Part shown: positions 7,587 to 36,357 of the stretch, one piece after another
How positions within the stretch are numbered: the first letter of the stretch is position 1
How the letters are laid out: each line of letters opens with the position of its first letter
Source: a virus
Strand: one strand, 5' to 3'
Length of the DNA: 64,000 nucleotides
IMG/VR virus record: IMGVR_UViG_3300034283_000433
Location: 4,323-68,322 of that record
Made by a program: the position numbers and the translations under genes
The notes under the pieces: model-generated
The model's database searches: none
What the model saw: the letters and a program-made list of their open reading frames with translations, nothing else
What the model was told of the DNA's origin: nothing

Positions 7587-9364
7587 TAGATTAAATTATT
7601 TCGTTTTAATATGTCACGAAGTTCGTTATTTTCCTTCTTTAATTCTTTTATAGCCTCAATAAATAATCCACCCATATTTCCGTAAGCTACATTATACATA
7701 CCATCTTCATCTTGATTTACAACTTCTGGTACTATAGGTAATGTTTCTTGCGCAATAACACCAATTTTCGTTTTACCATCTTCAGAGCCTATTCTTGTGT
7801 AAGACACACCTCTTAATGCTAATACTTTATCAAGTGCGCCTTCAATAGTCTTTACATTTTCTTTTACTCTAGCATCTGAGTATGCTGTTACATCACCAAC
7901 AGCTGTCCAGTTACCTGAGTCATCACAATAAGCTCCCCATCCACCAGCTTGAGTTAAAAATCCAATACGATTTGAGTTACAATGAATTTCACGCTGCCCC
8001 TCATCACTATCTGACATATATATAGAACTGGATGAGCCAGCTCCTGTTACTGTTAAATATCCACCTATTGTAACACTACCACTACTTGATAGTGGCGTAT
8101 ATCCTAAAGCACCTGTAACCTGACCTGATGTAATACCAGTCAAGTATGTACTGTTATCGTAAGATATAGTTGTACCTGAAATCTTCACAAAACCTGTACC
8201 ATTCAATGCAGGCTGACCACCTAATCCAGCCAATGTATATGTAGGTATATTTAATGTTGCACCTGTTAAGGTTGCAGCACCTGAACTACCTGTTACTGTT
8301 AAAGTAAGTGCGTTTTGTTTATTGTTAAATGTTGTCCAGTTAGCTGATGTCAAATATCCGTTCTGGCTACCTGTAGCAGCAGGCATAGAAAATACACCTG
8401 TGTTTGAATCGTAAGCCATAGGAGCTGTAGCAGAGAATGCAGCTTTACTTGCACCACCACCAATACCATTTGCAACAACAGTTAAAATAGTTCCCTCTGG
8501 TATTCCTGAAGCTAATGTGATACTTGTACCATTCGTAGCTGTAAACTCAGCAGGAGCCATCTTAGAGCCATTATAGAATACTTCTACGCTACCTACAGTA
8601 TAGTTTACTGTGAATACACTTTGGTTAGCTGTAGCTGTAAATACAGTCTCTGTTCTTGTAGGAATATTAGCTGCATCAGCAGGAGTATATCCTAACCATC
8701 CAGCTATTGTTTTATTCACCCATAATGTTCCGTTATATCCTAAGATATGACCATTAACAGGAGTAGTTGTAATTAAATCAACATCGTGAATTTCTCTAAG
8801 CTCAAAACCATTCTGCACCTTCACAAAAATCTCACCATTGTTAGCGTTTATTCTTGTAACGATACCTATAAAAACTAAGTGAGCAGGAGCATAAGGCTTG
8901 TTAGTCAAACCATATATTAAGTTACCATCAGTACCTAACCATACAGGGTCACCTGCATTAGTAGCTCCTGTAGTATTTAAGCCTGCCAATAACCCTTCTG
9001 TAATAACGTTCCCAATCCCATTGTTAGATAGGTTAGACTCTATAAGACCCATTGTCTTAGATGATGTAGCTTCAGATGCGTTAGAGGCCTTGCCAACTAT
9101 CATATTTGTGCCATCCGCACTTGTAACATAAACAGCTTGTCCCTTTGTTAAAGCTACACCTGCCTTTACTTGATGTTTTACAGTAGATGTAAAACCAGCA
9201 GGCAAGGAACCTATACCCAAATCATTGTACAATTCTAAAGCAGTTCTGAAATCTACATTGCCAGAAGCATCAAGTACTAAAAACTTGTCAGTATTTGTAC
9301 CAGCATTAGCTACAGAGTTAGCTGTAATTGTACCATTAAATATGGCATTACTTTGAAACTTCAT
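7586..9364 (-). CDS. Tail fibre with one branching-type domain and S74-like chaperone
   Basis: C-terminal YSDARVKENV...GVIAQE..PEVV; one TATANQSVF..Y.VG.VEVFYNG domain. Confidence 0.85.
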   Translation of the reverse strand: MKFQSNAIFNGTITANSVANAGTNTDKFLVLDASGNVDFRTALELYNDLGIGSLPAGFTSTVKHQVKAGVALTKGQAVYVTSADGTNMIVGKASNASEATSSKTMGLIESNLSNNGIGNVITEGLLAGLNTTGATNAGDPVWLGTDGNLIYGLTNKPYAPAHLVFIGIVTRINANNGEIFVKVQNGFELREIHDVDLITTTPVNGHILGYNGTLWVNKTIAGWLGYTPADAANIPTRTETVFTATANQSVFTVNYTVGSVEVFYNGSKMAPAEFTATNGTSITLASGIPEGTILTVVANGIGGGASKAAFSATAPMAYDSNTGVFSMPAATGSQNGYLTSANWTTFNNKQNALTLTVTGSSGAATLTGATLNIPTYTLAGLGGQPALNGTGFVKISGTTISYDNSTYLTGITSGQVTGALGYTPLSSSGSVTIGGYLTVTGAGSSSSIYMSDSDEGQREIHCNSNRIGFLTQAGGWGAYCDDSGNWTAVGDVTAYSDARVKENVKTIEGALDKVLALRGVSYTRIGSEDGKTKIGVIAQETLPIVPEVVNQDEDGMYNVAYGNMGGLFIEAIKELKKENNELRDILKRNNLI

Positions 9365-11671: not shown

Positions 11672-14600
11672 CTATTTATTCTTTGGCTGTGCTAGCTTCA
11701 TATATTCTATACCAGTAGGATTGTCTGCATTCATTAACCCTAGATTGTACAATAAGCCGAAATAGTTGCTTTTCTCTTTAGCGTCCATATCTGAAGCCTG
11801 GTCAAATATATACTTTGCTCTAATCTTAGCGTCATTGATAATATAGGCTTGGTATACATTTTGGTCATAGTTTTTTTGAATATACTTTCTTTTCATATCT
11901 GCAGAAACAGACTTAGATATATTTCCAGCTATTCCACCACGCTTATCTGAGCTAAGTGTAACCAATTTGCTGTATAAAGAAGGATAATCCTTTTTAACAG
12001 GTTCAAGCGTTTTTATTATTTCCGCAAACTTGTTTTCTATCTGCTTATTATAGTTGTCATACTCCTCTTGAGAACCTTTTTTATTTGCAAGTAATGCGCC
12101 AAATGCTTTTGAACGCAAGTGCTCAATCTCCAATAAATCGCCCTCAATCAAAGACTTATAATAGTTTGGCGTGCCAGAGAACATTCTTTTCTGTAAAGAC
12201 AATCCATTAAATATAGCACCTTTCCAGTCTTTCTCAATGTCATTCTTTATGCTTACAGGAGCTCCAGATGCTAATTCAATTGCAGTTTCAAATGCAATCT
12301 TTGGAATATATATAAGAGGGTTTCTTTCTGGCTGTCCGTATATCTTTTGACCTGCAGCTTGCATTCTAGCTGGAGACAAACCAGTTGCACTACCTACTTT
12401 TTTATAGAAAGTACTTACAGCTTCATCAGTAGCTCCTTCTATGCTATCTGGTATATCAGCCTCGTCTTTTACTAGTTGTCTCTTAGTAAACAAGTCTAAG
12501 TTATTGTATGCCATCATAGCTGCAGCGCCTGGAGGTAACTTTGCAGGAATCTCTGTAATATCTCCAAATGGATTAGCATTAGCAATAGCACCAACATAAT
12601 CAGCCTTGCTGTATATAGCATTGTTAACCTTGCTTTCAAATCCCATCATACCAGCTACCCAGAAATTTTTATATACTGGAGGTAAAGGAACCTTTACAAA
12701 CGCTCTTTCTGGGACATTACCACCTACGTATATGTTAAGGTAGTTTAGCTTTTGGTATTCAGATAATGCATCCCAAGCAGCTTTTTTCTTCTTTTTTTCT
12801 TCTTCGTCTTCCCAAGCCATATTCAATACACCTGCACTATAAGCTGTTAACATACCGCCTATAGATAGCATTTCCGCTAATTGATAAGCTGCTCTACCTG
12901 GATTCTTTTTAATCTGGTCTGTAACAGAAACCCCTGTTCTAACTGTAGAGTTTAAATAGATAATTAATCTTGACGCTGGCTTAATAATACTACCTCCTCT
13001 AGCAAAGTCAGAACTTCTTCTAGCTTCGTGAGCAGCCTTGGCATATATATCATTCATCTCGGAAGTATTTGGTTGTCTTCCGTTTTCTTTTGCAAACTTT
13101 TCTGTAAATACAACTCTTGCTCTATCAAATATAATAAGTCTTGTAGCCTTCTCTGTTACGTCTGATACTTTACCTAAACCTGTCGCATCTATTAATTTAT
13201 CTATAAATTCAACTGGCTTAGAACTATATTTGCTAGCATTATTGATTAACTTTTCATAATTATCTCCATCTACAACGTCTTTTGATAATAAAGAAGATTC
13301 TAATTCTTTACCAGCGTTCATTTCAGTAAATGCACCCCACTTTGCAGCTAATCTATATTTATCTCCTCTTTTGATAACTTGTTGTATAGAACCTCTCCAT
13401 CCTACTTTATCAACTCCACCAAGTGCAATCTGTGCATATGCAACAGGAACAGATGGAGCAAATACATTAGTAGCAACTGCAGCTGTTATAGGGTCTAATG
13501 CAATCATCTGAAATATACCAAATCCAGGGTTCTTACCAGTAAATATTTTTTGAGCTAAACTAGCAAATGTTATATTGGCTAATGTATTAATTTCATCAGA
13601 TTGACGATATTTTGCATTCCATTGTTTTGTTATTTCATTGTCTGCAAGTAATGCCTTTTTTTGTCCATCTTCATAGTAGAATATGTAAGACTTCCCTTCT
13701 GGTGCTTTTGGATAAACAGGATTACCTTCCATATCAAGTCTAACCTCACCTTCGTCATCTACTAATGGATTAACGATTTGAATCATACCATTATCAGGAA
13801 TACTTTCAGCAAACTTAACCAATCCTAATGCAGCCCTATTATTAGATATACTCTTATAATGACCAGCAGCAAATACTTGGAATACATTTTCGTAGTCAGT
13901 AAGAATATCTCCTTCAGCACCGCCAGTTAAAACAGCCTTTCTTAGTTGATTAGGGTTTTTTGATACTACTCTAGCATACTCTGGATTTTCTTCTTGTAAT
14001 ATCTTCTCTATGTATGTAATTGGAACGTAATCGTATTTAGTATAGAATTCGTGCTGCTCTTTAGACGCTATGCCATTTTCCAACTTTTCATCCATAAGCT
14101 TCTTAAATGTATTAAACATTTTATCTGCTCTATTATTTAAATCTTCAAATGTAGCACCATCAAACATTGCAACATTATCAATTTCTTTTTGCAATAATTC
14201 TATTCTCTTTTTAGCAAATCCTGCATTATCTGCTACCTTTTTACCTGTAGCATCTACAGTAGAACCTACTTGGTAGTTTTGCAAATATTCTGTAGTAGTC
14301 TGCGTCTGTGGATTATATTTTCTTCCTAATACTTTTCTACCTTGTAAATATTCTACAGTAGCGTCTATTCTAACTTGAAGTGCTTCTTTTTTAGCCTTAC
14401 TTCTAAGTTTTTTCATCTGAGCGCGCATTGCTTGAAGTTCATTGAATTTGTCTTCAATCATATTTTGTATAGCTACAATTCTTCTTGCACTAATAATTTG
14501 ATTAAGTAATTCAACTTCGCTAGTCTTACTTCCTAATATTTCAATATCGTTTTTGTCAGATAATCCACCGTAAACAGCTTCTGTTAAGTCTTCTGATATT

Positions 14601-17600
14601 AAAGCAGATTGAGCACCAAAACCTCTTGAAGTTGTAAGCAATGATTCTGCAACAGTTCCTGCTTCACCTTTATTTCTAAGCAAGTTTATTAATGTAGTCT
14701 GATTTTCTATTCCACCAAGCTTAATATTTTTATATTTATTTTTAATATTACTAATTAAACCAGTTTTTTCAATAGACTCTTGTGCTCTTTTCTTTGCATT
14801 TATATTATACGCAAATGAAGCAGCCGCATCAGCTTCCGTTCTAGCGTTTTCTTTAGCTGTTTGTTTTGCTGATTTTCTAGTACCACCTTCTTGTTGTAAT
14901 GCAAGTTGTTTTCTTACAGCAATAATAGGCTGTGCTCCCATAGCTGATTTAGCAGCCTGTGGTTTACCTCTTTGTCCAAGTGGTGTTTGATTGGCTTCTT
15001 TTGAAGCAGGTATAAAGCTAGGAGCAATATCTCTAACGTCGTAAAACTTATTAAATATACCTATAGGAGTACCTGTAACTACAAATGGATAAGAAGGGTG
15101 ATTCTTAAATCTATTGTCTGTTCTAGTATCTACAATAGGACTATTTTTATCAATTTGTATAGCAGCTACAATATCACCATATTCTGCACTTTTAACAAGA
15201 GGGTCATTGGATATATCAAGCGCTGTCTCTAATCTTGGAATACCAAAGTTCTTTTCTGTAAATGCACTAAATACTTTTTTAGTAAAACCACCTCTTTGGT
15301 CGTAGCTAAATTTAGAAGGGCCTTCTATAGGCATTAAATTTTCTAAATCTGCAATAGACTCTATACTTGTCTTCTTACCTTTGCTTGCTAATAATTGTCT
15401 AAATGTTTGACCTTTCTTAACATTAGTATCTAACTTGCTGTCAAGATACTTTGCTAAATCTTTTTCTGCAACACCTTTATCTATTGCATTGTAAAATTCG
15501 CCAATCATATATCCGTAGAAGTCATAACTTCCAGTAATACCTTCTTCTTTTTGTGACATTATAAGCCCTACGCCATCACTTGCTTTTGCTCTGTTTAAAA
15601 ACTTCTGAGCTGCAGCTTTTGTAGTAAATGCCCATACACCTGTACCATCTTGATATGAATAACCAACGCCTCCGTTAAACTCGTGAACATATCCACTAGG
15701 TGATTTAACAAAAGCAGAAACAGCTTTATCTGCAGCGAATATAAATGCGTTAGCACCATCAATATCACTTATATCTATAAACTTAAGATTCTTTTCGTCA
15801 AAGTTTCTTTCAGCTATTTCTAAATTTAATCCTTCTTTGTTAGGGCCTCTTTCAGTAGGCTTTATGTTACCAGCATTAATTACAATAGTATCAGAAGTAA
15901 TACCAGCCTCTGTTGCAGAACCTGAAGTTTCACTAACTATTATAATTTCTTTTCCTGTTTGGAATGCTTCTTTAATCTTTGCAGCTATAGACTTGATATC
16001 GTCTAAAGAATTAATATCTGTGCCTAATCCTATAATATCTAAGAATCCTCTAATTACGTCTAAGATATTCTGCATTACAGTAGGCTGGTCTACAGGTAGT
16101 TCAATTTGTCCGTCTGCAACTCTAGCTATAAATTCTACAATAGCTTCTGACTTTACAGTATCGTCTCCGTAGATAGAATAGCCATCGCCAAAAGCTAATA
16201 CACCATTTACACCATCAAGAGTTTCACTAAGGTCTCTCAATTGATTGTACAACGTACCAACAGCTTCTGAGTTTTGCTCTGCTATAATATTGATAATAGG
16301 ATGAGCTCCTTCGTGGAATATTGTAGATGTTTTAGCCTTTTTAGCAATATTCTCCGCATTAAGATATATAATATCATTCTCTGGGTCAAATGCTCCATTA
16401 GAGCCTCTTAAGTCCCTTTCTCTTTGTTTACTTACTGTTTCTCCATTGTCCAACTCTTGTTGTAACAAAGTATTACCATACTCTTGAACCGTAGGTATAA
16501 CAGCTATTTTAAGATTTGGCTTGATACTTTTTAATGCAGATACGACATTCGCTGCTCTATTGATAACGCCATCTATTAAAGACCTAGGTCTATCTATGGT
16601 TGATGTTGCTGCATTTTGAGCGTCAATAACTATTTTTTGTTGTTGCGTCTTGCTGCCGAAAGCGCTATAGCGATTATCTGTTTCATTGGACGCTTGGTTT
16701 TGGATGCCTTGAGTTCCCTGATATTGGCTGATACTGCTTGTTGCTGTGCTTTCTTGCCCTTCGCTGATTGTAGTGGCATATTGTTTATTTTTAATATTTA
16801 ATCCTGTCTTATCATCAACCTCTTCTGTAAGAGGGTCGTCAGATGCTTGCGCTCTGCTGATTCTCTCGTTTACTTGCTCTAACTCAGTATTTAATGCATT
16901 TAACGCACTAATGTTAGTTTCTGGCGTATTCTTTATTTGCTCTTGTAAGGCTTCTGCCTTCATAGTCAAACCAGCTACTGTAGGTACAGCATCTTGGTTA
17001 GACACCATAACCTTAGCCTTTGTGTCTCTAAACTTATTTACATCGTCTACTGCCTTTTTAGCTGTACCTTCTGGAACTAAGCCTGTTTGTTCCATAGCTA
17101 CCATATTATTGTAGATAGTCTGATTATCTAAGTTTGATATAGCATTGTAAGCATATGACTTAACGTACTTAGGTACTGATACAGCACCACCAATAGCAGC
17201 AAATCCAAGTTGAGTTAAAAACTCCGCCTTGAACTGCTCCTCAGCTGAATCATCCGAACCTCCTCTAACCTTTTCCATAGAGTATGCAACAGCACCATCT
17301 AAAAAGCCAGATAAGGCCAATTCCTTGCCATTTGAAGCTGCATCTTTTAAGAATGCCTTAGTAGCTTGCCCAAAAGATTTAAGGTCTCTAGCAGGCGCTA
17401 AATCAGCAAATTTGTTTAATACCTTGTTACCCAAGTATTGACTCACTGCTCCCTCTGCAGCACCAGTTAATAATGGCACTTTGCTATTCCAAAAATTAGT
17501 AGCTACTTCGTATGCATCGTCGTCTGAAAGTCCACTCTGTTTAGCTTTTTGGAATGCCTGATTCATACTGTCAAATTGCTGTCTCTTACCTTGCACAGCA

Positions 17601-18511
17601 CCGACAACAGCAGGTGATAACATTTGGCCTAATCCAGGGATTGCGCCTACAGTTATACCCGTAGCAATGTCTGGCATAACGCCACCCATCATAGAAGCTG
17701 TTTCTGCGAATGCTCCACGTCTTTCCATACCAACAGTGCCTAAATCTTTATCCATTGGTCTGTCAATATATCTTGTCTTATTAGGCTTTCCAGCCTCTCC
17801 TATAGTAGGTATTTGAACTCTCTTGCTACCTTTCATAAACGAAATCTGCTCGTCTTTGTCCATCATATCAAAGTCAGCTACCTGAGAATTTGCATTTAGT
17901 GTATTTTGTACACCATCTATAAAGTTGGCAATAGTGCCATCTATAACATTCTTAAGTACAGGGAATCCTTTGTCATCTTTAGCAATACGTAATTCTCCTT
18001 TCTTAAATCTAGATAAAAAATCCTCTTTCTTTTGAGCTACGAATACGTCTCTCATTGGCATATCAGCAGGAAGCTGATTAGCATATAATTTAGCCTGATT
18101 GTCTATAGCTATCAATGCATTTTCGTATGTATTAATATTAGCCTTAGACTTCTCAAGTACGATTCCTTTTGGCTTTTCTCCTGTAACCTCTTTAGCTTTT
18201 ACAACAGGCTTAACAGCTTCTACTCTAGGCTTCATTTCAGCCATAGCAGCAGCTTCTACATCTTTCATTGAAAATGCAGGTTTAGCCTCTTGTTTAGCTT
18301 GTTCTTTTTGTACGGGAAGTTGACCAGCCCTTGCAGCTTTAAATAATGGCTGTACAGATGGAGCACCCTTCTTTAAGGTATTCAAATAGTTTGCTCTAAG
18401 TAATTCGCTTACACTAGAGTATCCAGTTCTTCTATCTTTTGGATTAGTAGGGCCTTGACTATTGCCTTCGCTATTGTAATCAACGGTTTCGTCTGTAGTA
18501 TTTTCAGCCAT
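11672..18511 (-). CDS. Large internal virion/ejection (polyvalent-type) protein with zincin HExxH motif
   Basis: 2279 aa, helical; IFHEGAH...SEAIVE; third of three ejection-like genes after the nozzle. Confidence 0.7.
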   Translation of the reverse strand: MAENTTDETVDYNSEGNSQGPTNPKDRRTGYSSVSELLRANYLNTLKKGAPSVQPLFKAARAGQLPVQKEQAKQEAKPAFSMKDVEAAAMAEMKPRVEAVKPVVKAKEVTGEKPKGIVLEKSKANINTYENALIAIDNQAKLYANQLPADMPMRDVFVAQKKEDFLSRFKKGELRIAKDDKGFPVLKNVIDGTIANFIDGVQNTLNANSQVADFDMMDKDEQISFMKGSKRVQIPTIGEAGKPNKTRYIDRPMDKDLGTVGMERRGAFAETASMMGGVMPDIATGITVGAIPGLGQMLSPAVVGAVQGKRQQFDSMNQAFQKAKQSGLSDDDAYEVATNFWNSKVPLLTGAAEGAVSQYLGNKVLNKFADLAPARDLKSFGQATKAFLKDAASNGKELALSGFLDGAVAYSMEKVRGGSDDSAEEQFKAEFLTQLGFAAIGGAVSVPKYVKSYAYNAISNLDNQTIYNNMVAMEQTGLVPEGTAKKAVDDVNKFRDTKAKVMVSNQDAVPTVAGLTMKAEALQEQIKNTPETNISALNALNTELEQVNERISRAQASDDPLTEEVDDKTGLNIKNKQYATTISEGQESTATSSISQYQGTQGIQNQASNETDNRYSAFGSKTQQQKIVIDAQNAATSTIDRPRSLIDGVINRAANVVSALKSIKPNLKIAVIPTVQEYGNTLLQQELDNGETVSKQRERDLRGSNGAFDPENDIIYLNAENIAKKAKTSTIFHEGAHPIINIIAEQNSEAVGTLYNQLRDLSETLDGVNGVLAFGDGYSIYGDDTVKSEAIVEFIARVADGQIELPVDQPTVMQNILDVIRGFLDIIGLGTDINSLDDIKSIAAKIKEAFQTGKEIIIVSETSGSATEAGITSDTIVINAGNIKPTERGPNKEGLNLEIAERNFDEKNLKFIDISDIDGANAFIFAADKAVSAFVKSPSGYVHEFNGGVGYSYQDGTGVWAFTTKAAAQKFLNRAKASDGVGLIMSQKEEGITGSYDFYGYMIGEFYNAIDKGVAEKDLAKYLDSKLDTNVKKGQTFRQLLASKGKKTSIESIADLENLMPIEGPSKFSYDQRGGFTKKVFSAFTEKNFGIPRLETALDISNDPLVKSAEYGDIVAAIQIDKNSPIVDTRTDNRFKNHPSYPFVVTGTPIGIFNKFYDVRDIAPSFIPASKEANQTPLGQRGKPQAAKSAMGAQPIIAVRKQLALQQEGGTRKSAKQTAKENARTEADAAASFAYNINAKKRAQESIEKTGLISNIKNKYKNIKLGGIENQTTLINLLRNKGEAGTVAESLLTTSRGFGAQSALISEDLTEAVYGGLSDKNDIEILGSKTSEVELLNQIISARRIVAIQNMIEDKFNELQAMRAQMKKLRSKAKKEALQVRIDATVEYLQGRKVLGRKYNPQTQTTTEYLQNYQVGSTVDATGKKVADNAGFAKKRIELLQKEIDNVAMFDGATFEDLNNRADKMFNTFKKLMDEKLENGIASKEQHEFYTKYDYVPITYIEKILQEENPEYARVVSKNPNQLRKAVLTGGAEGDILTDYENVFQVFAAGHYKSISNNRAALGLVKFAESIPDNGMIQIVNPLVDDEGEVRLDMEGNPVYPKAPEGKSYIFYYEDGQKKALLADNEITKQWNAKYRQSDEINTLANITFASLAQKIFTGKNPGFGIFQMIALDPITAAVATNVFAPSVPVAYAQIALGGVDKVGWRGSIQQVIKRGDKYRLAAKWGAFTEMNAGKELESSLLSKDVVDGDNYEKLINNASKYSSKPVEFIDKLIDATGLGKVSDVTEKATRLIIFDRARVVFTEKFAKENGRQPNTSEMNDIYAKAAHEARRSSDFARGGSIIKPASRLIIYLNSTVRTGVSVTDQIKKNPGRAAYQLAEMLSIGGMLTAYSAGVLNMAWEDEEEKKKKKAAWDALSEYQKLNYLNIYVGGNVPERAFVKVPLPPVYKNFWVAGMMGFESKVNNAIYSKADYVGAIANANPFGDITEIPAKLPPGAAAMMAYNNLDLFTKRQLVKDEADIPDSIEGATDEAVSTFYKKVGSATGLSPARMQAAGQKIYGQPERNPLIYIPKIAFETAIELASGAPVSIKNDIEKDWKGAIFNGLSLQKRMFSGTPNYYKSLIEGDLLEIEHLRSKAFGALLANKKGSQEEYDNYNKQIENKFAEIIKTLEPVKKDYPSLYSKLVTLSSDKRGGIAGNISKSVSADMKRKYIQKNYDQNVYQAYIINDAKIRAKYIFDQASDMDAKEKSNYFGLLYNLGLMNADNPTGIEYMKLAQPKNK
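16630..16779 (-). CDS. Nested out-of-frame small basic protein (49 aa)
   Basis: Hand-translated MPLQSAKGKKAQQQAVSANIRELKASKTKRPMKQIIAIALSAARRNNKK; A-rich leader; resembles a common stand-alone phage peptide family. Confidence 0.7.
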   Translation of the reverse strand: MPLQSAKGKKAQQQAVSANIRELKASKTKRPMKQIIAIALSAARRNNKK

Positions 18512-20502: not shown

Positions 20503-23500
20503 TTATCTATTATTTAAAGGTTGTTGTATTCCTAATTCTACGTAGTACAAATCTACTAAACTTTGCGGATTTACTGGCTTTAAGTTTAATTCAACCCAGC
20601 TACCTTTCAAAGGCCTTCCGTTTAGTAATCCTCCTGGGCTTAACATATCTCTCTTAAATGCAGCGTGATACTTGTCGTCTTTAATTCTAAAGTCAGACTG
20701 TACAAGCTGTGATTGTTGAGCCATATTAGTATTTACATCCCCTTGCGTAGGAGCAACCCAAGTAGTATTGCCTAATGTAGTTATAGTATTGTAATGCTTT
20801 TTGATGCTTTGACCATCATTGAAAATAATCTTTATACTAGGGCTTTTCTGTTCTTCATAGAAGTTAGCATAGTTAGTAGTATTGTTATGCACCCATAGCT
20901 CCCCATTTTTCCAAGTAATAATCAAATTACCAACAGAGTCTATCCACTCTGGGAAGTAGTCATAAAACGCACTATATGCGTTTCTAGTCTCAGAGAATCC
21001 AAATGTATAGTCTGGCAGTACAGTTGAGCTACCTTGCATAGCTGTAATGTACTCCTCTTCAAATAAGTCATACACTCCTAAAATCTTTGCATACCCTCCG
21101 TTACCAAACTTATCTGGGTAGTCTGTTTTTTGATATTTAGCTATCTTATCTGTAAAGAAAAAGTGTGCTTTATATAATTCAGTTATAGAAGTAATTCCAT
21201 CATTAGACAGTCTAATCTGAGCACCTAAAACAGGGTCTATAAAATAGTCAGCAATAGGCGAAGAAGCTAAAGAACAATACTGCTCTCCTATGCCATACTC
21301 ACCTTTATAGTACTGAATCTTATTTACGATTTCTGAGCTTTGAGAAACAACGCTATTACCATCTGCTGTTTGTAGCATATTTTGAAGGATAGGTACTACT
21401 CCACACGCTCTATTTTGGAATACTCTTAGTTGATTATCCCTTAATTTAAATCTTTGTATATCACCCTTTTGTCTGTCGTACTCATCAAGATTTTCTGGTA
21501 AAAACTTATTTGTATTGTTTATACTTGTACTACTTTGATACTCAAGAGAATATCTTATAGTCGTTGGAAAATATGTTTCTCTTGCATACTCATCTTCTAC
21601 AAATGTTCTTCCATTACCATCTAGCTTAGACTCATACTTATCAGATATAGACATATCTATAATTGAATGTCCGTTACTTCTTAGTCTTGAATAAACATCG
21701 CCTTTATACAAATAGTATTGAGCAGCCTGTGCAGGTGTAGCTTGACCAGGGTTCTGTATTACTTGATTTTTAAGAGAACCTTCGTGTACTAAATTTCCGT
21801 TAGCATCTGTTATGATATTGTAATTTTCTCCAAACTCATAATAAACTTGGTCGCTATAAGACGAATTGGTAAATGGCTTATACGCTTCAATATAGTATAT
21901 AACAGAGTTGTTTGGGTTTGTAGGCCAAGTACTCATAAATGCACTTGTATTATCGTACTGAATCTTAATCCAATAACCTGGTGTTTTAGTTCCGTCTGTA
22001 CTCTCTGTTAATACTTCAATAATTGGAACTTCATAGCCATTATAGGTAGATTGTCCAAAAGCTCCGTGTATGATGACTCTATCCCCTTTTGTATATTCAT
22101 AAATAGGGAATCCAGCATTATTCTGATTATAAGCCAATATGTTCATATAAGCATAAGTAGAATCCTTATAAACGAAATTTGTAGTAGCCCACACAAAATT
22201 GCTATTTGTCAAGTTCTTTGTTCTTACAAATGAAAATGATTTAGCCCAAGATGGTGGCTTATGAGAAATATTAAATTTAATTCTAGGGTATGGTATTATT
22301 GGGTCTGTACCTAAGCCTAAAGTTGTAACAGATAAGCTAGGTGTCATAAACCTCATTTCTGTATTTGTAACAACTCCGTTTGTAACACCAAACTCATCAA
22401 AGTATACTAAGCCAAACTTGTATAAAGAAGAATGCTTGTAAATTGAAATATTGGTATCTGGTATAGCATCAGGATTAATCAACGTTACAGTAGCTGTACC
22501 TGTTACAGACCATTGTAATGTATTGGCTGTAAATGGATAAACTATAGTAAATCCATTTGTTATAGCATCTGTATTTAATTCCGACTCGTTGCCTATTATA
22601 CCAGAAAAATAAGTAATAACATCATTTATTGTTTTCCCAGTCGTTACTGTATAAGAATAAGAATAGTTCTTAGTAGTAGCAACAGGGATTCCTCCAGTAC
22701 CTGTTAAATAAAACAATCTAACTGTCATCGCTATTATGTCACCAACGGCAGGTATACCAGTGAATGTAAATGACCACGCTGAACCATTACTTTTACCTGT
22801 AACAACTAAAGGATTAGAAGGCTTTACAGTATCTATAGTCTTAGATATAGAAAGTGTTTCACTAAAAGTATTACCCTCTGTAATTCCTCCGTAAGCTAAA
22901 ACATTACCATTTAATAACTCCTGTGTATTTGCTTTTTTAGGCACATAATCAAACAGCTGTGTGCTATCAGATAATCCGACAATAGAATACAATTGGTCGT
23001 TATAGAAATTATAAACGCTAGTTGAATTATCTGGAATAGAGTTCTTTGCCTTGTCTATAACAGTAGCAAGCATTCTATCAGAGAATACAGATGCTACACT
23101 CTCTCTTACAGATATTTCAATCTTAGTTACATCTCTCTGCCCTGTCTTGTAAAATACGTTTATTGCGTTGTTTACCGCAGCTGTAGATAGCGTTATATCC
23201 GTAACTCCTGGAGGAGGCACAAGCGCACTCCAAGGGCCCCAAGTAGATTTTGTATCATCTCTATAAACCCATCTATAACTAAATTGGAATAACTTACTAG
23301 CTAGGTTATTTGAAGTAGAACTAGGCTCTGTAGCATAGTTGCATACAGGAGCTAATCCAGGTACTTTTCTACTAACAGTCAGGTATTCTTTTTTCCAGTT
23401 ACTTCCGTATACATTAGCAGCTATTCTATTAGTTCCTGCTGGTCTATCTAAACCAGTATCCTTTATGTTTATTTTCATTGGTCTATTCTTCCTGTCTGTC

Positions 23501-23748
23501 CAATGAAGCACATCTCCGTCTTGTTCTGTTCTATATAATATATTTACTGAGGCTACTGGGAACTTTGGGTCAAACTCAAATAAGTCCTCTTGGCTGTCTA
23601 TAAAAGAAATAAGCAAAGGCTCAATAACGTTTGTCTTAAGATTGTATACATATATGCCATTATAACCAGCAGAGTTGTAATTAAAATAAAACACCCTGTG
23701 CTTTAATTCGTCATAATGAGACCCTATGCATTGATTGGTAGAAGCCAT
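20503..23748 (-). CDS. Tail nozzle/stabilization protein, apparently lacking its N-terminal ~60 aa
   Basis: 1081 aa; WTDRKNRPMKINI, FQFSYRWVY.D, YKFGLVYFDEFG, RLSNDGIT.I motifs. Confidence 0.8.
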   Translation of the reverse strand: MASTNQCIGSHYDELKHRVFYFNYNSAGYNGIYVYNLKTNVIEPLLISFIDSQEDLFEFDPKFPVASVNILYRTEQDGDVLHWTDRKNRPMKINIKDTGLDRPAGTNRIAANVYGSNWKKEYLTVSRKVPGLAPVCNYATEPSSTSNNLASKLFQFSYRWVYRDDTKSTWGPWSALVPPPGVTDITLSTAAVNNAINVFYKTGQRDVTKIEISVRESVASVFSDRMLATVIDKAKNSIPDNSTSVYNFYNDQLYSIVGLSDSTQLFDYVPKKANTQELLNGNVLAYGGITEGNTFSETLSISKTIDTVKPSNPLVVTGKSNGSAWSFTFTGIPAVGDIIAMTVRLFYLTGTGGIPVATTKNYSYSYTVTTGKTINDVITYFSGIIGNESELNTDAITNGFTIVYPFTANTLQWSVTGTATVTLINPDAIPDTNISIYKHSSLYKFGLVYFDEFGVTNGVVTNTEMRFMTPSLSVTTLGLGTDPIIPYPRIKFNISHKPPSWAKSFSFVRTKNLTNSNFVWATTNFVYKDSTYAYMNILAYNQNNAGFPIYEYTKGDRVIIHGAFGQSTYNGYEVPIIEVLTESTDGTKTPGYWIKIQYDNTSAFMSTWPTNPNNSVIYYIEAYKPFTNSSYSDQVYYEFGENYNIITDANGNLVHEGSLKNQVIQNPGQATPAQAAQYYLYKGDVYSRLRSNGHSIIDMSISDKYESKLDGNGRTFVEDEYARETYFPTTIRYSLEYQSSTSINNTNKFLPENLDEYDRQKGDIQRFKLRDNQLRVFQNRACGVVPILQNMLQTADGNSVVSQSSEIVNKIQYYKGEYGIGEQYCSLASSPIADYFIDPVLGAQIRLSNDGITSITELYKAHFFFTDKIAKYQKTDYPDKFGNGGYAKILGVYDLFEEEYITAMQGSSTVLPDYTFGFSETRNAYSAFYDYFPEWIDSVGNLIITWKNGELWVHNNTTNYANFYEEQKSPSIKIIFNDGQSIKKHYNTITTLGNTTWVAPTQGDVNTNMAQQSQLVQSDFRIKDDKYHAAFKRDMLSPGGLLNGRPLKGSWVELNLKPVNPQSLVDLYYVELGIQQPLNNR

Positions 23749-34047: not shown

Positions 34048-36357
34048 TTATTCTGCTTCAGTTTCTTGCGCCTCTTGTTCTTGCGCTGCTTGTTGCTGTT
34101 GCATCATCATTTCTTCCATTTCTTTTTGCTGCTTCTTAGCAAAGAATGCATCAACTACTGCTTTCATTTCTGGACTAAGTGGTCTACCTAGTTCATAAGA
34201 TTTAAGTAAAGCTAATTGTACAAACTCTTGCTCAGATAACTCTTGCTTCATCTTCATCTCTGTACTAACAACAGCTAGTTTACCTTGAGCTTCTATTTGT
34301 TGTAATTGAGCATCTGCCTGAGCTTTAGCTTGAATAGACTGCTGTTGAGCTTGCGCATTCATTTCTGAATTACGTTGCGCCTTCTCCATCTCAGCTTTTT
34401 CTTTATTCTTCTTAGCCTTTGTAAGATACATTTCTGCAAGCTTAGTGTTCTTAATACTACGGATTCTAAATGCATCTTCAAATTCCATCATACCTGCAGA
34501 TAATGCTGTTTGAATCATACCTTCTAAGAATTGTCTTTCTTTCTCGTCTGGCATTACTTCAATCTTTACATCAAAGTGTCTTCCTTTTACCTTATCTGGA
34601 GTTAAATAGTCTTCGTATTGTTTACCACCATAAGAAACAGAATCATATAACAATAATGAAATCTTGAATGCAGTTTGTTGGTATAAGCTTAAATAAGCAT
34701 CGTATATGAAATCTGTAGCATTGTTAGATGCTTGAATTTGCGCTTGTTGTACACCTAAACCTAATTTAGGGTTTACGCCAGAACCTTCTCTATATTCATT
34801 AACTCCGATTTCATCACGTAAGCGCTCAAGATAGTGGTTGTAAACCATAATCAATTGTTGGATTTGACTTACGCTACCAGTATTAGGAGCTTCTTGAATA
34901 GGCACTCCGTTTTGGCTATCTCCATCTTCAGTTCTACGCTTGTAGTAGATGTTACCTGTTTGGTCGTAAACAGCTTGTAACTCCAACGGACTCAATGCTT
35001 TAGCTTGTCCAATATTAATATCAGACAATGAGTCAATATCTATAATTAAACCTGAAGGTCTAAGTTTTGCGATTAACTGCTGAATCTTCAAGTGAGCTAA
35101 AGTCATCTGGCGAATAGAAGTCTCCATTCTCTCAGGAATAGCCATATTCTCTAAATCCAAGTTCTCGTGCATATACACGCTATAGCTAAAGTATGCGTCA
35201 GCAATTTCTTTTGTACTAGAAGGCTTAATCATATTCTTAGCAACACCCCACTCTAGCATAGTGTCTGTATTCAATACATATACACCACGATAGATAACGT
35301 ACATATCCTTGGTAATCAATTCTTTATTATCACCTAGTCTTTGAGGAGCTTTGTCCTTTTTATCAACAGCTGTAAGATTGCCATACTTGTTAGTCTTGGC
35401 TTGATACATCATACTGTCTATAGTCTTGATTTCGTAGTCTAATACGTCTACAGTCCAATCGTCATATGGTCTATCAATAGAATATCTAAATCTATCGTCC
35501 CACTTAACAGACTGGCTATATTGTTTAGCCTGTTTAGCTAACTGCCAAATCTTTTCTTCTGGCATATTAGGATATTGGTTTCTAATGTCTACTAATTTCA
35601 TAGACAATACCTCACCTATAAAAGAAACGTCACGAAAATCATCGTAGTTAGAAAAACCATAAAAGCTATTCTCTGGAACAACACGTCTAACGTTTATTTT
35701 ACCATTAGCTCCTGTACTTACTTTTGTAGCTCCTAAGCCTGTTTCTGATACATCTTCTAAAATCTTACGCTTGATTACAGGCCATCCATTTTCATAGAAT
35801 ACGTAATCACAGCCTTTTTCAAATAATATTTCCTCTGGCAATTGATATTCAAGGCCAAAGTATAATTCTAATTCATCATAGTCTTGAGGAGTAAACTGAC
35901 CATCAGCAATTAACTTTACGCCAGTTTGAGCTTCCATACCCTTAATCTCTTCACCAAAGTTCATTCTAAACTCAGCGTCGTCTCTATCGTATTTCTTTCT
36001 CTCAACAGATACTGGGTCAATCGCTGTAGCACGAACTTTCTCGTCACGCTTCATAAATCCACCGATAATAACCTGCATAAACTTAGGAGCAATTGCAGGC
36101 GCTTTCATATCTAGGTTTACAAACGCTTCTTTACCATCTACGTTCAATAAGTCTAAGAACTCCTGCATAGGCTGTTTACCTCTAGAGAACTTCCTGTTCT
36201 TTTCAAACTTTTTATTACGTCTGGTGAAATAACCACTATTGTAGGCTTTTTGTAAGAATTTAGATATCTTTAAGCCTTCGTCAGTATCTCTCTTTAATTT
36301 AGAGTTACCTAGGTGGAAATTTAATATTTCCTTTGTTGTTTCTTTATTATCGCTCAT
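34048..36357 (-). CDS. Portal protein
   Basis: 769 aa; IAPKF..VI.G, YDQTG.IYY, G.NE.REGS motifs, Q-rich C-terminal barrel; follows terminase. Confidence 0.85.
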   Translation of the reverse strand: MSDNKETTKEILNFHLGNSKLKRDTDEGLKISKFLQKAYNSGYFTRRNKKFEKNRKFSRGKQPMQEFLDLLNVDGKEAFVNLDMKAPAIAPKFMQVIIGGFMKRDEKVRATAIDPVSVERKKYDRDDAEFRMNFGEEIKGMEAQTGVKLIADGQFTPQDYDELELYFGLEYQLPEEILFEKGCDYVFYENGWPVIKRKILEDVSETGLGATKVSTGANGKINVRRVVPENSFYGFSNYDDFRDVSFIGEVLSMKLVDIRNQYPNMPEEKIWQLAKQAKQYSQSVKWDDRFRYSIDRPYDDWTVDVLDYEIKTIDSMMYQAKTNKYGNLTAVDKKDKAPQRLGDNKELITKDMYVIYRGVYVLNTDTMLEWGVAKNMIKPSSTKEIADAYFSYSVYMHENLDLENMAIPERMETSIRQMTLAHLKIQQLIAKLRPSGLIIDIDSLSDINIGQAKALSPLELQAVYDQTGNIYYKRRTEDGDSQNGVPIQEAPNTGSVSQIQQLIMVYNHYLERLRDEIGVNEYREGSGVNPKLGLGVQQAQIQASNNATDFIYDAYLSLYQQTAFKISLLLYDSVSYGGKQYEDYLTPDKVKGRHFDVKIEVMPDEKERQFLEGMIQTALSAGMMEFEDAFRIRSIKNTKLAEMYLTKAKKNKEKAEMEKAQRNSEMNAQAQQQSIQAKAQADAQLQQIEAQGKLAVVSTEMKMKQELSEQEFVQLALLKSYELGRPLSPEMKAVVDAFFAKKQQKEMEEMMMQQQQAAQEQEAQETEAE

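What the first reader, a model, noticed from the sequence alone, without database searches (positions are those of the whole stretch)
16630..16779. Small basic gene nested out of frame inside the 2279-aa ejection protein
Seen: a 49-codon ORF on the same strand in a shifted frame (MPLQSAKGKKAQQQAVSANIRELKASKTKRPMKQIIAIALSAARRNNKK) behind an A-rich leader (AAATATTAAAAATAAACAAT-ATG). Over the same bases the large protein reads as an odd Q/S/T-rich linker. From memory, the peptide matches a widespread stand-alone phage family (MPL.KG.S...IS.NI.EL....P.KQA.AIAL..AR). Inferred: a real gene captured inside the giant gene, whose linker is the overprinted frame. Gene callers would miss it.
Basis: partly seen in the sequence, partly recalled or inferred. 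Interest (0 to 1): 0.75.

Follow-up and report, generated by a model that had tools for sequence, protein, structure and literature searches.

The report
Conserved small gene nested in giant gene
A 49-codon gene from a widespread phage family lies, in a shifted reading frame, inside the giant virion-cargo gene of a freshwater crAss-like phage, and comparison with relatives shows that the small frame is the one under protein-level selection while the giant frame is merely kept open across it.

Summary
The 49-aa ORF 16630..16779(-) lies in the +1 frame inside the 2279-aa ORF 11672..18511(-) of a crAss-like phage contig.

It belongs to phrog_2423, a family distantly linked to Pfam DUF6496. A profile of the family finds 4,549 cluster representatives.

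In the 75 related viral loci fetched, 21 carry the same gene nested in the same relative frame of a 1,500-3,800-aa ORF (20 unique copies with the window). Five crAss-like loci carry it free-standing between two large genes. The downstream one matches the C-part of the giants.

Across the 20 unique nested copies:
- Variation peaks at the small frame's third codon position.
- Small-frame dN/dS is about 0.42 and giant-frame dN/dS about 1.09.
- The giant frame has 0 stops. The equivalent frame has 88 stops in 18 free-standing copies.
- The ATG is kept in every copy, behind an A-rich, unstructured leader like other genes of this phage.

I read it as a real, separately initiated gene, with the giant protein's Q/T/E/G-rich linker as the unconstrained read-through frame. 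Translation and function are not shown. My guess is a basic helical-hairpin protein of the head or cargo. Whether the gene was captured or the giant later split is unresolved.

The parts
16630..16779 (-). Nested small gene: 49 aa, basic, phrog_2423 family. It is also the dual-coding segment, since the same bases encode residues about 578-628 of the giant protein in the other frame.
   Evidence: ORF and peptide. phrog_2423 E=3.4e-6 over the full length. Homologues of 48-60 aa. Codon-position pattern and dN/dS 0.42 (small frame) vs 1.09 (giant frame). Giant frame with 0 stops in 20 of 20 nested copies. AlphaFold2 helix-loop-helix, pLDDT 83.
16780..16804 (-). Translation-initiation region of the nested gene: an A-rich, unstructured leader without a Shine-Dalgarno sequence.
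   Evidence: 14 A in -20..-1. Only this ATG, of the 134 internal ATGs of the giant gene, reaches that count, and the leader ends like those of other genes of the window. Predicted MFE of -25..+15 is 0.0 kcal/mol against a background mean of -4.6. In relatives, 14 of 20 loci are in the top 5% for A-richness and 20 of 20 are within the most open 16% of internal ATGs.
16780..18511 (-). N-part of the giant gene (residues 1-577), upstream of the nested gene.
   Evidence: Only 28-31% identical to L001, L003 and L004, while neighbouring genes are 70-86% identical. Weak profile match to the upstream gene of split loci (probability 51.6%, E=1.5e-4).
11672..16629 (-). C-part of the giant gene (residues about 629-2279). 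It has one HExxH motif 104 residues after the overlap and a sub-threshold LPD38 hit at residues 1911-2060.
   Evidence: Pfam LPD38 at 23.4 bits (cut-off 27). HExxH. Profile of C-parts against the downstream gene of split loci: probability 97.3%, E=2.4e-11 over 601 columns.
20503..23748 (-). Crassvirus muzzle protein homologue. This context marker places the giant gene in the position of the cargo genes.
   Evidence: PF25731 E=2.2e-13 and PF25729 E=6.1e-9. Gene order in crAss001 (muzzle, then cargo genes).
34048..36357 (-). Portal protein (context: virion module).
   Evidence: phrog_6547 E=4.6e-89.

Best explanation
The 49-codon ORF is a real protein-coding gene of the phrog_2423 family (distantly DUF6496). 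It is embedded in the +1 frame of the giant virion-cargo gene of an uncultured freshwater crAss-like phage.

Shown here by comparison:
- The small frame is under purifying selection.
- The giant frame over the same bases changes its amino acids freely but is kept free of stop codons.
- The ATG and an A-rich, unstructured leader are conserved.

Inferred mechanism:
- Both products come from the same late mRNA.
- Ribosomes translating the giant ORF read a disordered Q/T/E/G-rich tether between its N- and C-parts.
- Other ribosomes start de novo at the internal ATG by the Shine-Dalgarno-independent route usual in Bacteroidota, and make the small protein.

Inferred evolution:
- The small gene is far older than the arrangement, because it has thousands of free-standing relatives in unrelated phages.
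- In this phage group it sits either between two large cargo genes or inside their fused form, so the linker is a read-through of a pre-existing gene.

Function (inferred, about 35% likely): a basic two-helix hairpin that acts inside the head with packaged proteins or DNA, for example as an adaptor that brings cargo, scaffold or protease into the procapsid. In other phages the same domain is the N-terminus of such proteins.
For: Family:
- phrog_2423 at E=3.4e-6 for the window peptide; 30 of 36 aligned relatives match it, best 1.2e-21.
- 15 of 36 match DUF6496 at E<=1, best 2e-6.
- A profile of A2 finds 4,549 representatives at E<=1e-3 and 368 at E<=1e-10.

Conserved nesting:
- Of 75 viral loci, 21 have the gene inside an ORF of 1,535-3,817 aa, always in the same relative frame. 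That gives 20 unique nested copies with the window. L022 has a truncated copy (28 open codons in its own frame) beside a 546-codon ORF in the same relative frame.

Selection (20 unique nested copies):
- Pairwise differences by small-frame codon position 1/2/3 are 0.276/0.193/0.422. The small frame's third position is the giant frame's first.
- Mean amino-acid identity is 0.68 in the small frame and 0.46 in the giant frame.
- The OLGenie-like ratio is 0.42 for the small frame (bootstrap 0.30-0.56) and 1.09 for the giant frame (0.79-1.50).

Frame kept open:
- Nested copies: 0 stops in the giant frame and 81 in the third frame, in 20 of 20 copies.
- Free-standing copies: 88 stops in the equivalent frame, which is open in 0 of 18.

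Island of conservation:
- Nucleotide identity of the small ORF to L001, L003 and L004 is 0.82, 0.75 and 0.73. The flanks are 0.54-0.58.
- Neighbouring genes are 70-86% identical, but the giant is at most 31% identical.
- In two DNA metagenome runs, contigs of other phages match only about 16643-16795 and then run on unlike the window.

Start signals:
- The ATG and the MPL start are kept in all nested copies.

Split relatives:
- L002, L008, L009, L023 and L024 have the gene free-standing between two large genes, in the same synteny from the muzzle gene to the homologue of the 190-aa gene.
- Their downstream gene matches the giants' C-parts (probability 97.3%).

Function leads:
- In-frame N-terminal copies of the domain occur on a DUF2213 protein (L064), a 1,634-aa polyvalent-type protein (L053) and AP22 gp28, annotated 'head maturation protease'.
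- The Pbunavirus homologue lies between the portal and capsid genes and is annotated 'virion protein' by its depositors.
- The AlphaFold2 model has two helices, 9-25 and 32-47, at pLDDT 83.
Against: - No direct evidence of translation was obtained. The RNA-library contigs that cover parts of the region do not separate the two frames and may even be DNA.
- The dN/dS figures are uncorrected pairwise proportions on related sequences, so their precision is overstated.
- The family is absent from crAss001 and from 4 of 4 other Flavobacteriia or crAss-like records tested. It is therefore not a universal crassvirus component.
- The functional guess is weak. In phiCbK the homologue sits in a tRNA cluster, and in RSB1 it is the last gene after the lysis genes.
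- The fold search gave no match at E<=0.001, and PDB sequence searches gave nothing.
- The upstream half of the 'split' picture is only weakly supported (probability 51.6%).
- In the L031-type giants a domain that follows the small gene lies before it in the split loci. The junction is therefore not at one fixed point in all lineages.
Confidence: 0.8

Rival explanations
1. Programmed frameshift product. Ribosomes translating the giant ORF slip into the small frame near its start. They would make a truncated N-part carrying the small domain at its C-terminus, rather than a free 49-aa protein.
For: The two frames are on the same strand and mRNA. Among the 150 best representatives, some have the domain at the C-terminal end of 110-180-aa proteins, for example P0036, P0147 and P0150. 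These could equally be over-extended start calls.
Against: The 30 nt upstream of the ATG differ widely among the 20 unique nested copies, with no shared slippery heptamer by inspection. The ATG and the MPL N-terminus are invariant and identical to those of free-standing genes. The leader has the features of an initiation site. Going from the giant frame to the small frame would need a +1 (or -2) shift, which is rare.
Confidence: 0.05
2. Untranslated relic or nucleotide-level element. The island is conserved for a reason other than the small protein, such as an RNA structure, a recombination or regulatory site, or constraint on the giant protein's linker. The ORF would then be a leftover of an old fusion.
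For: The island is conserved at the DNA level and is shared by otherwise dissimilar contigs. No expression data exist.
Against: Variation is highest at the small frame's third codon position and lowest at the giant frame's third position. This is the opposite of what constraint on the giant protein would give. Amino-acid identity is 0.68 in the small frame and 0.46 in the giant frame. Indels are whole codons, and start and stop are kept in 20 of 20 copies. The start region is predicted to be unstructured. Free-standing copies diverge in DNA (0.64-0.69 identity) but keep the protein.
Confidence: 0.07
3. The read-through has no function of its own. The working products are the N-part, the small protein and the C-part, as in the split relatives. 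The giant polypeptide is cut, or its linker is irrelevant, so the fusion is a neutral accident that persists.
For: The giant-frame dN/dS over the overlap is about 1.09. Split relatives show that covalent linkage is not required. The linker composition looks disordered. Some giants, but not all, carry HExxH motifs.
Against: The giant frame is open in 20 of 20 unique nested copies, with 0 stops against 81 in the third frame. The same frame carries 88 stops in 18 free-standing copies. This needs sustained selection on codon choice. Nested copies have 45-51% GC against 31-54% in free-standing copies; the five crAss-like split loci (four unique copies) have 33-41%.
Confidence: 0.08

Closest known systems
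phrog_2423 / Pfam DUF6496 small proteins of unknown function. Examples are Pbunavirus KPP22M1 ORF084 and E217 locus tag 00021, and the N-terminal 40 residues of Acinetobacter phage AP22 gp28.
   Same: Same family by HMM and profile comparison. Same length class, invariant MPL start, NIRE and AIA motifs and predicted two-helix hairpin.
   Different: Known members are free-standing genes or in-frame N-terminal domains. Here the gene lies out of frame inside another gene. The window peptide itself is below the Pfam cut-off (13.5 vs 24 bits). No member has a tested function that I could find: a full-text search for 'DUF6496' returned 0 papers.
Embedded out-of-frame genes of dsDNA phages, for example lambda Rz1 inside Rz in the +1 frame (recalled from general knowledge, not from a call).
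   Same: A small gene lies wholly inside a larger gene on the same strand in a shifted frame, with its own start.
   Different: Here the embedded gene belongs to an old, widespread family with thousands of free-standing relatives. The host gene's frame is the unconstrained one over the overlap, and relatives exist in which the host gene is two genes flanking the small one. A functional partnership of the two products is not shown.
Overprinting (birth of a new gene in an alternative frame of an existing gene) as reviewed in PMC8227390. Only the search listing and abstract were seen.
   Same: One DNA stretch codes in two frames. One frame is conserved, and the other is compositionally odd and fast-evolving.
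   Different: The polarity is reversed. The short nested frame is the old gene, and the long frame's segment is the young, unconstrained reading. It probably arose by fusion or read-through of flanking genes, not by de novo birth of the short ORF.
Crassvirales cargo proteins (crAss001 gp45, gp46, gp47, gp49, gp50; PMC10172136, passages read).
   Same: The giant gene follows the muzzle gene in the virion module, as the cargo genes do in crAss001. Its size is like that of gp47 (2,341 aa).
   Different: There is no detectable similarity to gp47 (best BLASTP E=0.38) or to any PDB chain. crAss001 has no member of the small family.

Membership tests
phrog_2423 | Significant full-length match to the family HMM | tested here: met
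   E=3.4e-6, residues 1-49 on profile positions 1-43 of 52. 30 of 36 aligned relatives match, best 1.2e-21.
Pfam DUF6496 (PF20106) | Score at or above the gathering cut-off (24 bits) | tested here: not met
   The window peptide scores 13.5 bits, E=0.097, on its C-terminal helix only. 15 of 36 relatives match at E<=1, best 2e-6. The link is therefore distant, through relatives.
phrog_2423 | Small size with the conserved MPL start, NIRE and AIA motifs, and a helix-loop-helix | tested here: met
   M1, P2, L3, N19, I20, R21 and A37 are invariant in 36 sequences. AlphaFold2 gives helices 9-25 and 32-47 at mean pLDDT 83.3.
Embedded out-of-frame gene (Rz/Rz1 type) | Wholly inside another ORF, same strand, different frame | tested here: met
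   16630..16779 lies inside 11672..18511, with a start offset of 1732 nt = 3x577+1. The same arrangement is found in 21 related loci.
Embedded out-of-frame gene (Rz/Rz1 type) | Own translation start signals | tested here: met
   Computational only. The leader is A-rich (only this one of the giant gene's 134 internal ATGs reaches 14 A) and unstructured. The ATG is conserved in 20 of 20 unique nested copies.
Embedded out-of-frame gene (Rz/Rz1 type) | Both proteins are made | not testable with these tools
   Only contigs of RNA libraries were available, and they cannot show frame, ends or translation.
De novo overprinted gene | The nested frame is the novel one, without relatives outside the clade | tested here: not met
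   The nested frame has 4,549 representatives and 552 GenBank phage records. The giant frame is the unconstrained one.
Programmed ribosomal frameshift site | Conserved slippery sequence at the frame junction | tested here: not met
   By inspection only, no shared heptamer is seen in the 30 nt upstream of the ATG in the 20 unique nested copies. No formal scan was run.
Crassvirales cargo protein (host gene) | Position after the muzzle gene in the virion module | tested here: met
   Muzzle homologue at 20503..23748. Gene order compared with crAss001.
Crassvirales cargo protein (host gene) | Sequence similarity to a characterised cargo protein or presence in virions | tested here: not met
   BLASTP against crAss001 gp47 gives a best E of 0.38. 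There is no PDB chain at E<=1. LPD38 is below its cut-off. Virion presence is not testable here.

The most novel reading that the evidence does not exclude
The small protein is a general head-interior adaptor that loads large cargo, scaffold or protease proteins into procapsids. Some phages carry it in cis, as the N-terminal domain of the protease, DUF2213 or polyvalent proteins. In these crAss-like phages it works in trans, on the very giant cargo protein whose gene contains it. Nesting would then tie the adaptor's synthesis to that of its client. The arrangement would have arisen by fusion of two cargo genes across an intervening essential gene. That would be a route to dual coding in which the long frame, not the short one, is the newcomer.
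Probability: 0.2. Interest if true: 0.8.

Novelty: new variant of a known kind. Interest (0 to 1): 0.62.

Why it matters
1. It adds a well-supported, deeply conserved out-of-frame nested gene to the few known in large dsDNA phages. It sits in a group (environmental crAss-like phages) whose giant virion proteins are poorly understood.

2. The polarity is unusual. An old, widespread small gene is read through by a hypervariable giant gene whose overlapping segment evolves neutrally yet is kept open. This gives a natural test case for how two frames share constraint, and for gene fusion or fission across an intervening gene.

3. It is a practical warning for annotation. Three of five nested copies looked up are not on record as proteins, and some GenBank cyanophage records leave the free-standing gene unannotated.

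4. It points to a family of several thousand small basic phage proteins with no tested function. Its recurrent association with head-morphogenesis and cargo proteins can be tested in cultured Pseudomonas and Acinetobacter phages.

Tried and rejected
Searches of GenBank phages:
- blastn with 15800-17600 gave no match.
- tblastn with the window's own 49-aa peptide gave no match even at E<=10. A relative's peptide found 552 records, so the blank probably reflects the low-complexity filter on this K/Q/A-rich query. It is not absence.
- tblastn with the 256-aa ring-like protein gave no match.
- The terminase found only relatives at about 31% identity in Flavobacteriia phages.

Structure and sequence look-ups that gave nothing:
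- PDB sequence searches with the giant protein and with the family profile gave 0 matches.
- Foldseek of the hairpin model against the PDB gave no match at E<=0.001. The best was E=3.7, so the listed names mean nothing.
- The ESM Atlas returned only unnamed viral clusters, one with DUF6496 on 16% of members.

Complex prediction of the portal (769 aa) with the small protein returned 'no answer' (score 0.00). This is no evidence either way.

Relatives without the family:
- crAss001 and four other records (Maribacter phage Panino, Flavobacterium phage elemoE_6-9C, MW202828.1 and Cellulophaga phage phi14:2) gave no family match. The tool warns that an empty answer shows little.
- BLASTP of the giant against crAss001 gp47 gave nothing significant.

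HExxH after the overlap was checked as a possible conserved self-cleaving protease. It is present in only some giants and at varying distances, so I dropped it as a general feature.

Sequencing runs: the small shares in RNA runs were laid, and only two short RNA-library contigs cover parts of the region. This does not show transcription, and parts without cover mean nothing.

Literature:
- 'DUF6496' returned 0 papers.
- 'crAss-like' with 'overlapping gene' returned 3 papers, none on this subject judging by title and abstract.
- 'nested gene', 'overprinting', 'bacteriophage', 'out-of-frame' returned general reviews only, seen as listings.
- The E217 cryo-EM paper (PMC10329688) has 0 occurrences of 'gp21' or 'mass spectrometry' in its main text.
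- The 'KPP22' search did not return the paper behind the 'virion protein' annotation.
- Supplements were closed and may hold virion proteomes that bear on the Pbunavirus homologue.

Tree: nine rows (L031-L036, L038, L059 and their kind) were left out because their muzzle homologue is only about 243 aa. The root is a midpoint only, so no direction of change is claimed.
Full report
**What is there.** The window is 64 kb of a 68-kb IMG/VR virus record, estimated 57% complete.
- The minus strand carries a virion module: terminase, portal (phrog_6547, E=4.6e-89) and structural proteins. A Crassvirus muzzle homologue lies at 20503..23748 (PF25731, E=2.2e-13).
- Genes of 230 and 408 aa follow, then a 2279-aa ORF at 11672..18511, and then tail-fibre-like genes.
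- The nearest cultured relatives by terminase are Flavobacteriia phages at about 31% identity.
- The stretch occurs in lake and freshwater metagenomes of several studies.
- Genes of the window have no Shine-Dalgarno motif. They have A-rich leaders, as expected for a phage of Bacteroidota.

**The observation.** The 49-codon ORF at 16630..16779(-) exists as described, in the +1 frame of the giant ORF.
- An ORF of this size in an alternative frame is not remarkable by itself. One search lists several others nearby.
- The peptide, however, matches phrog_2423 over its whole length (E=3.4e-6). It matches Pfam DUF6496 weakly (13.5 bits, below the 24-bit cut-off).
- A search of 5.8 billion proteins gave 26 proteins of 48-60 aa at 57-98% identity.
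- A profile of 36 relatives found 4,549 cluster representatives at E<=1e-3, mostly 41-100 aa.
- A relative's peptide found 552 GenBank phage records.

**Nested and split relatives.** The search for related loci returned 75 viral loci.
- In 21 of them the small ORF lies inside an ORF of 1,535-3,817 aa, always in the same relative frame: L001, L003-L007, L010-L015, L020, L031-L036, L038 and L059. L022 has a truncated copy.
- In five crAss-like loci (L002, L008, L009, L023, L024) it stands free. It starts 4-32 nt after the stop of a large upstream gene and abuts a 1,000-1,270-aa downstream gene. Synteny is the same: muzzle gene upstream, homologue of the window's 190-aa gene downstream.
- The downstream gene is collinear with the C-parts of the giants: BLASTP down to 2e-25 and profile-profile probability 97.3%, E=2.4e-11 over 601 columns.
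- The upstream match is weak (probability 51.6%, E=1.5e-4). Cross comparisons are negative at probability 0.3%.
- In the L031-type giants, a domain that follows the small gene lies before it in the split loci. The junction has therefore not stayed at one point in every lineage.

**Which frame is selected.** The close relatives L001, L003 and L004 have neighbouring genes 70-86% identical to the window's. Their giant genes reach only 28-31% in part of the N-half and give no hit in the C-half. Yet the nested peptide is 77-94% identical.
- Nucleotide identity is 0.82, 0.75 and 0.73 in the small ORF, against 0.54-0.58 in the flanking 300 nt.
- In two DNA runs, contigs of other phages match the window only at about 16643-16795 and then diverge.
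- In a codon alignment of 20 unique nested copies, pairwise differences by small-frame position 1/2/3 are 0.276/0.193/0.422. The most variable position is the giant frame's first, and the least variable is the giant frame's third.
- Amino-acid identity is 0.68 in the small frame and 0.46 in the giant frame.
- An OLGenie-like partition gives 0.42 for the small frame (bootstrap 0.30-0.56) and 1.09 for the giant frame (0.79-1.50).
- These are uncorrected proportions on related sequences, so they show direction, not exact strength.

**The giant frame is nevertheless kept open.**
- It has 0 stops in 20 of 20 unique nested copies, against 81 stops in the third frame.
- The equivalent frame of 18 free-standing copies has 88 stops and is open in none.
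- The giant-frame translation of the overlap is Q/T/E/G-rich with hardly any L, F, M, W, C or H. Its hydrophobic fraction is 0.153 against 0.306 elsewhere, like a disordered tether.

**Start signals.**
- All nested copies keep the ATG and the MPL start.
- In the window, the 20 nt before the ATG hold 14 A. The 134 internal ATGs of the giant gene average 6.85, and only this one reaches 14. The leader ends like those of several bona fide genes of the window.
- Across the 20 unique nested loci, 14 are in the top 5% of internal ATGs for A-richness.
- All 20 have a predicted folding energy of -25..+15 between 0 and -2 kcal/mol, against background means of -3.7 to -5.5.
- I saw no shared slippery sequence upstream (by inspection). 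By eye, the 120 nt upstream in the window hold no Bacteroidota-type promoter motif.
- I therefore infer internal initiation on the mRNA of the giant gene.

**Evolution.** On a tree of the C-terminal 420 aa of the muzzle protein (20 rows), the five split loci need one change (support 77/93, not starred). They sit inside a tree with nested loci on both sides.
- Nine more distant nested rows were left out because their homologue is short.
- The root is a midpoint only, and phage modules recombine, so the direction (fusion or fission) stays open.
- What is clear is that the small family is far older and wider than the nested arrangement. The giant frame over it is therefore the secondary reading.

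**Function.** Nothing is tested for any member.
- A search for 'DUF6496' found 0 papers.
- AlphaFold2 with the 36-row alignment gives a two-helix hairpin (pLDDT 83.3) with no significant structural neighbour.
- Context leads towards the head. The domain is the in-frame N-terminus of a DUF2213 protein (L064, E=4.3e-45 for DUF2213). It is also the N-terminus of a 1,634-aa protein with a weak ART-PolyVal hit (L053), and of AP22 gp28, annotated 'head maturation protease'.
- In Pbunaviruses the homologue lies between the portal and capsid genes, and its depositors annotated it 'virion protein' in KPP22M1.
- Against a uniform head role, phiCbK has it in a tRNA cluster, and RSB1 has it as the last gene after the lysis genes.
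- crAss001 and four other related records lack the family.
- My committed guess, at about 35%, is a basic head-interior protein acting with packaged proteins or DNA, possibly as a loading adaptor.

**Annotation.** The window's exact peptide is on record from one ENA contig. Three of five nested peptides looked up are not on record. Several GenBank cyanophage records have no feature over the free-standing gene.

**Earlier scan note.** Note e1-6306518 describes a genome with 231-, 548-, 1383- and 1255-aa proteins. These are the gene sizes I see in split locus L009. Its claim about cysteines was not tested here.

**Verdict.** The reading as a real nested gene, with the giant's linker as the unconstrained frame, is supported by independent comparative tests. 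Expression and function remain to be shown. Nested out-of-frame genes are known in phages. This case is new in its family, its host gene and its polarity, so I rate it a new variant of a known kind, with interest 0.62.

Noticed in passing
window 11672-18511 vs L001, L003, L004: The giant gene is hypervariable among otherwise close phages. Neighbouring genes are 70-86% identical, but the giant reaches only 28-31% in part of its N-half and gives no BLAST hit in its C-half. Its length also varies, from 1,935 to 2,288 codons stop to stop, among these relatives.
   Followed up: partly
window 5334-7586 and 7586-9364: The two tail-fibre-like genes share repeated segments. tblastn hits from residues 65-88, 118-141 and 171-194 of the 750-aa protein land on the same target stretch. 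This suggests a repeat of about 53 aa and mosaic exchange between fibre genes of relatives.
   Followed up: no
GenBank JF974321.1 6615-6743, NC_020857.1 6615-6743, JF974286.1 and NC_020847.1 23517-23645: In the Prochlorococcus phage records MED4-117 and MED4-184, the free-standing homologue (62.8% identity to the L026 peptide, E=8e-9) has no annotated feature. The near-identical P-HS2 record annotates it as a hypothetical protein.
   Followed up: partly
L053 9986-14887: In an unrelated, GC-rich viral contig the small domain is the in-frame N-terminus of a 1,634-aa protein with a weak ART-PolyVal hit (E=4.3e-5, below cut-off). This is a second kind of link between this domain and giant polyvalent-type proteins.
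   Followed up: partly
L008, L009, L023 upstream gene residues about 790-900 vs L031-L036 and L059 giants, residues 3-126 after the small gene: A conserved domain of about 70-130 aa (36-55% identity) lies just after the nested gene in one lineage. In the split lineage it lies about 480 aa before the free-standing gene. Either the small gene or the domain has changed place.
   Followed up: no
window 16643-16795 in runs X3 and X5: In two DNA metagenome runs, the summed contig depth over the nested gene is several times that of the flanks (for example 150-274 against 18-72 in X5). The cause is that contigs of other phages share only this island.
   Followed up: partly
L022 10001-10087: One relative, with a muzzle protein 52% identical to the window's, has only a truncated copy of the small ORF (28 codons open in its own frame). 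A 546-codon ORF lies in the other frame, near the end of the held locus. It may be a broken or rearranged copy.
   Followed up: no
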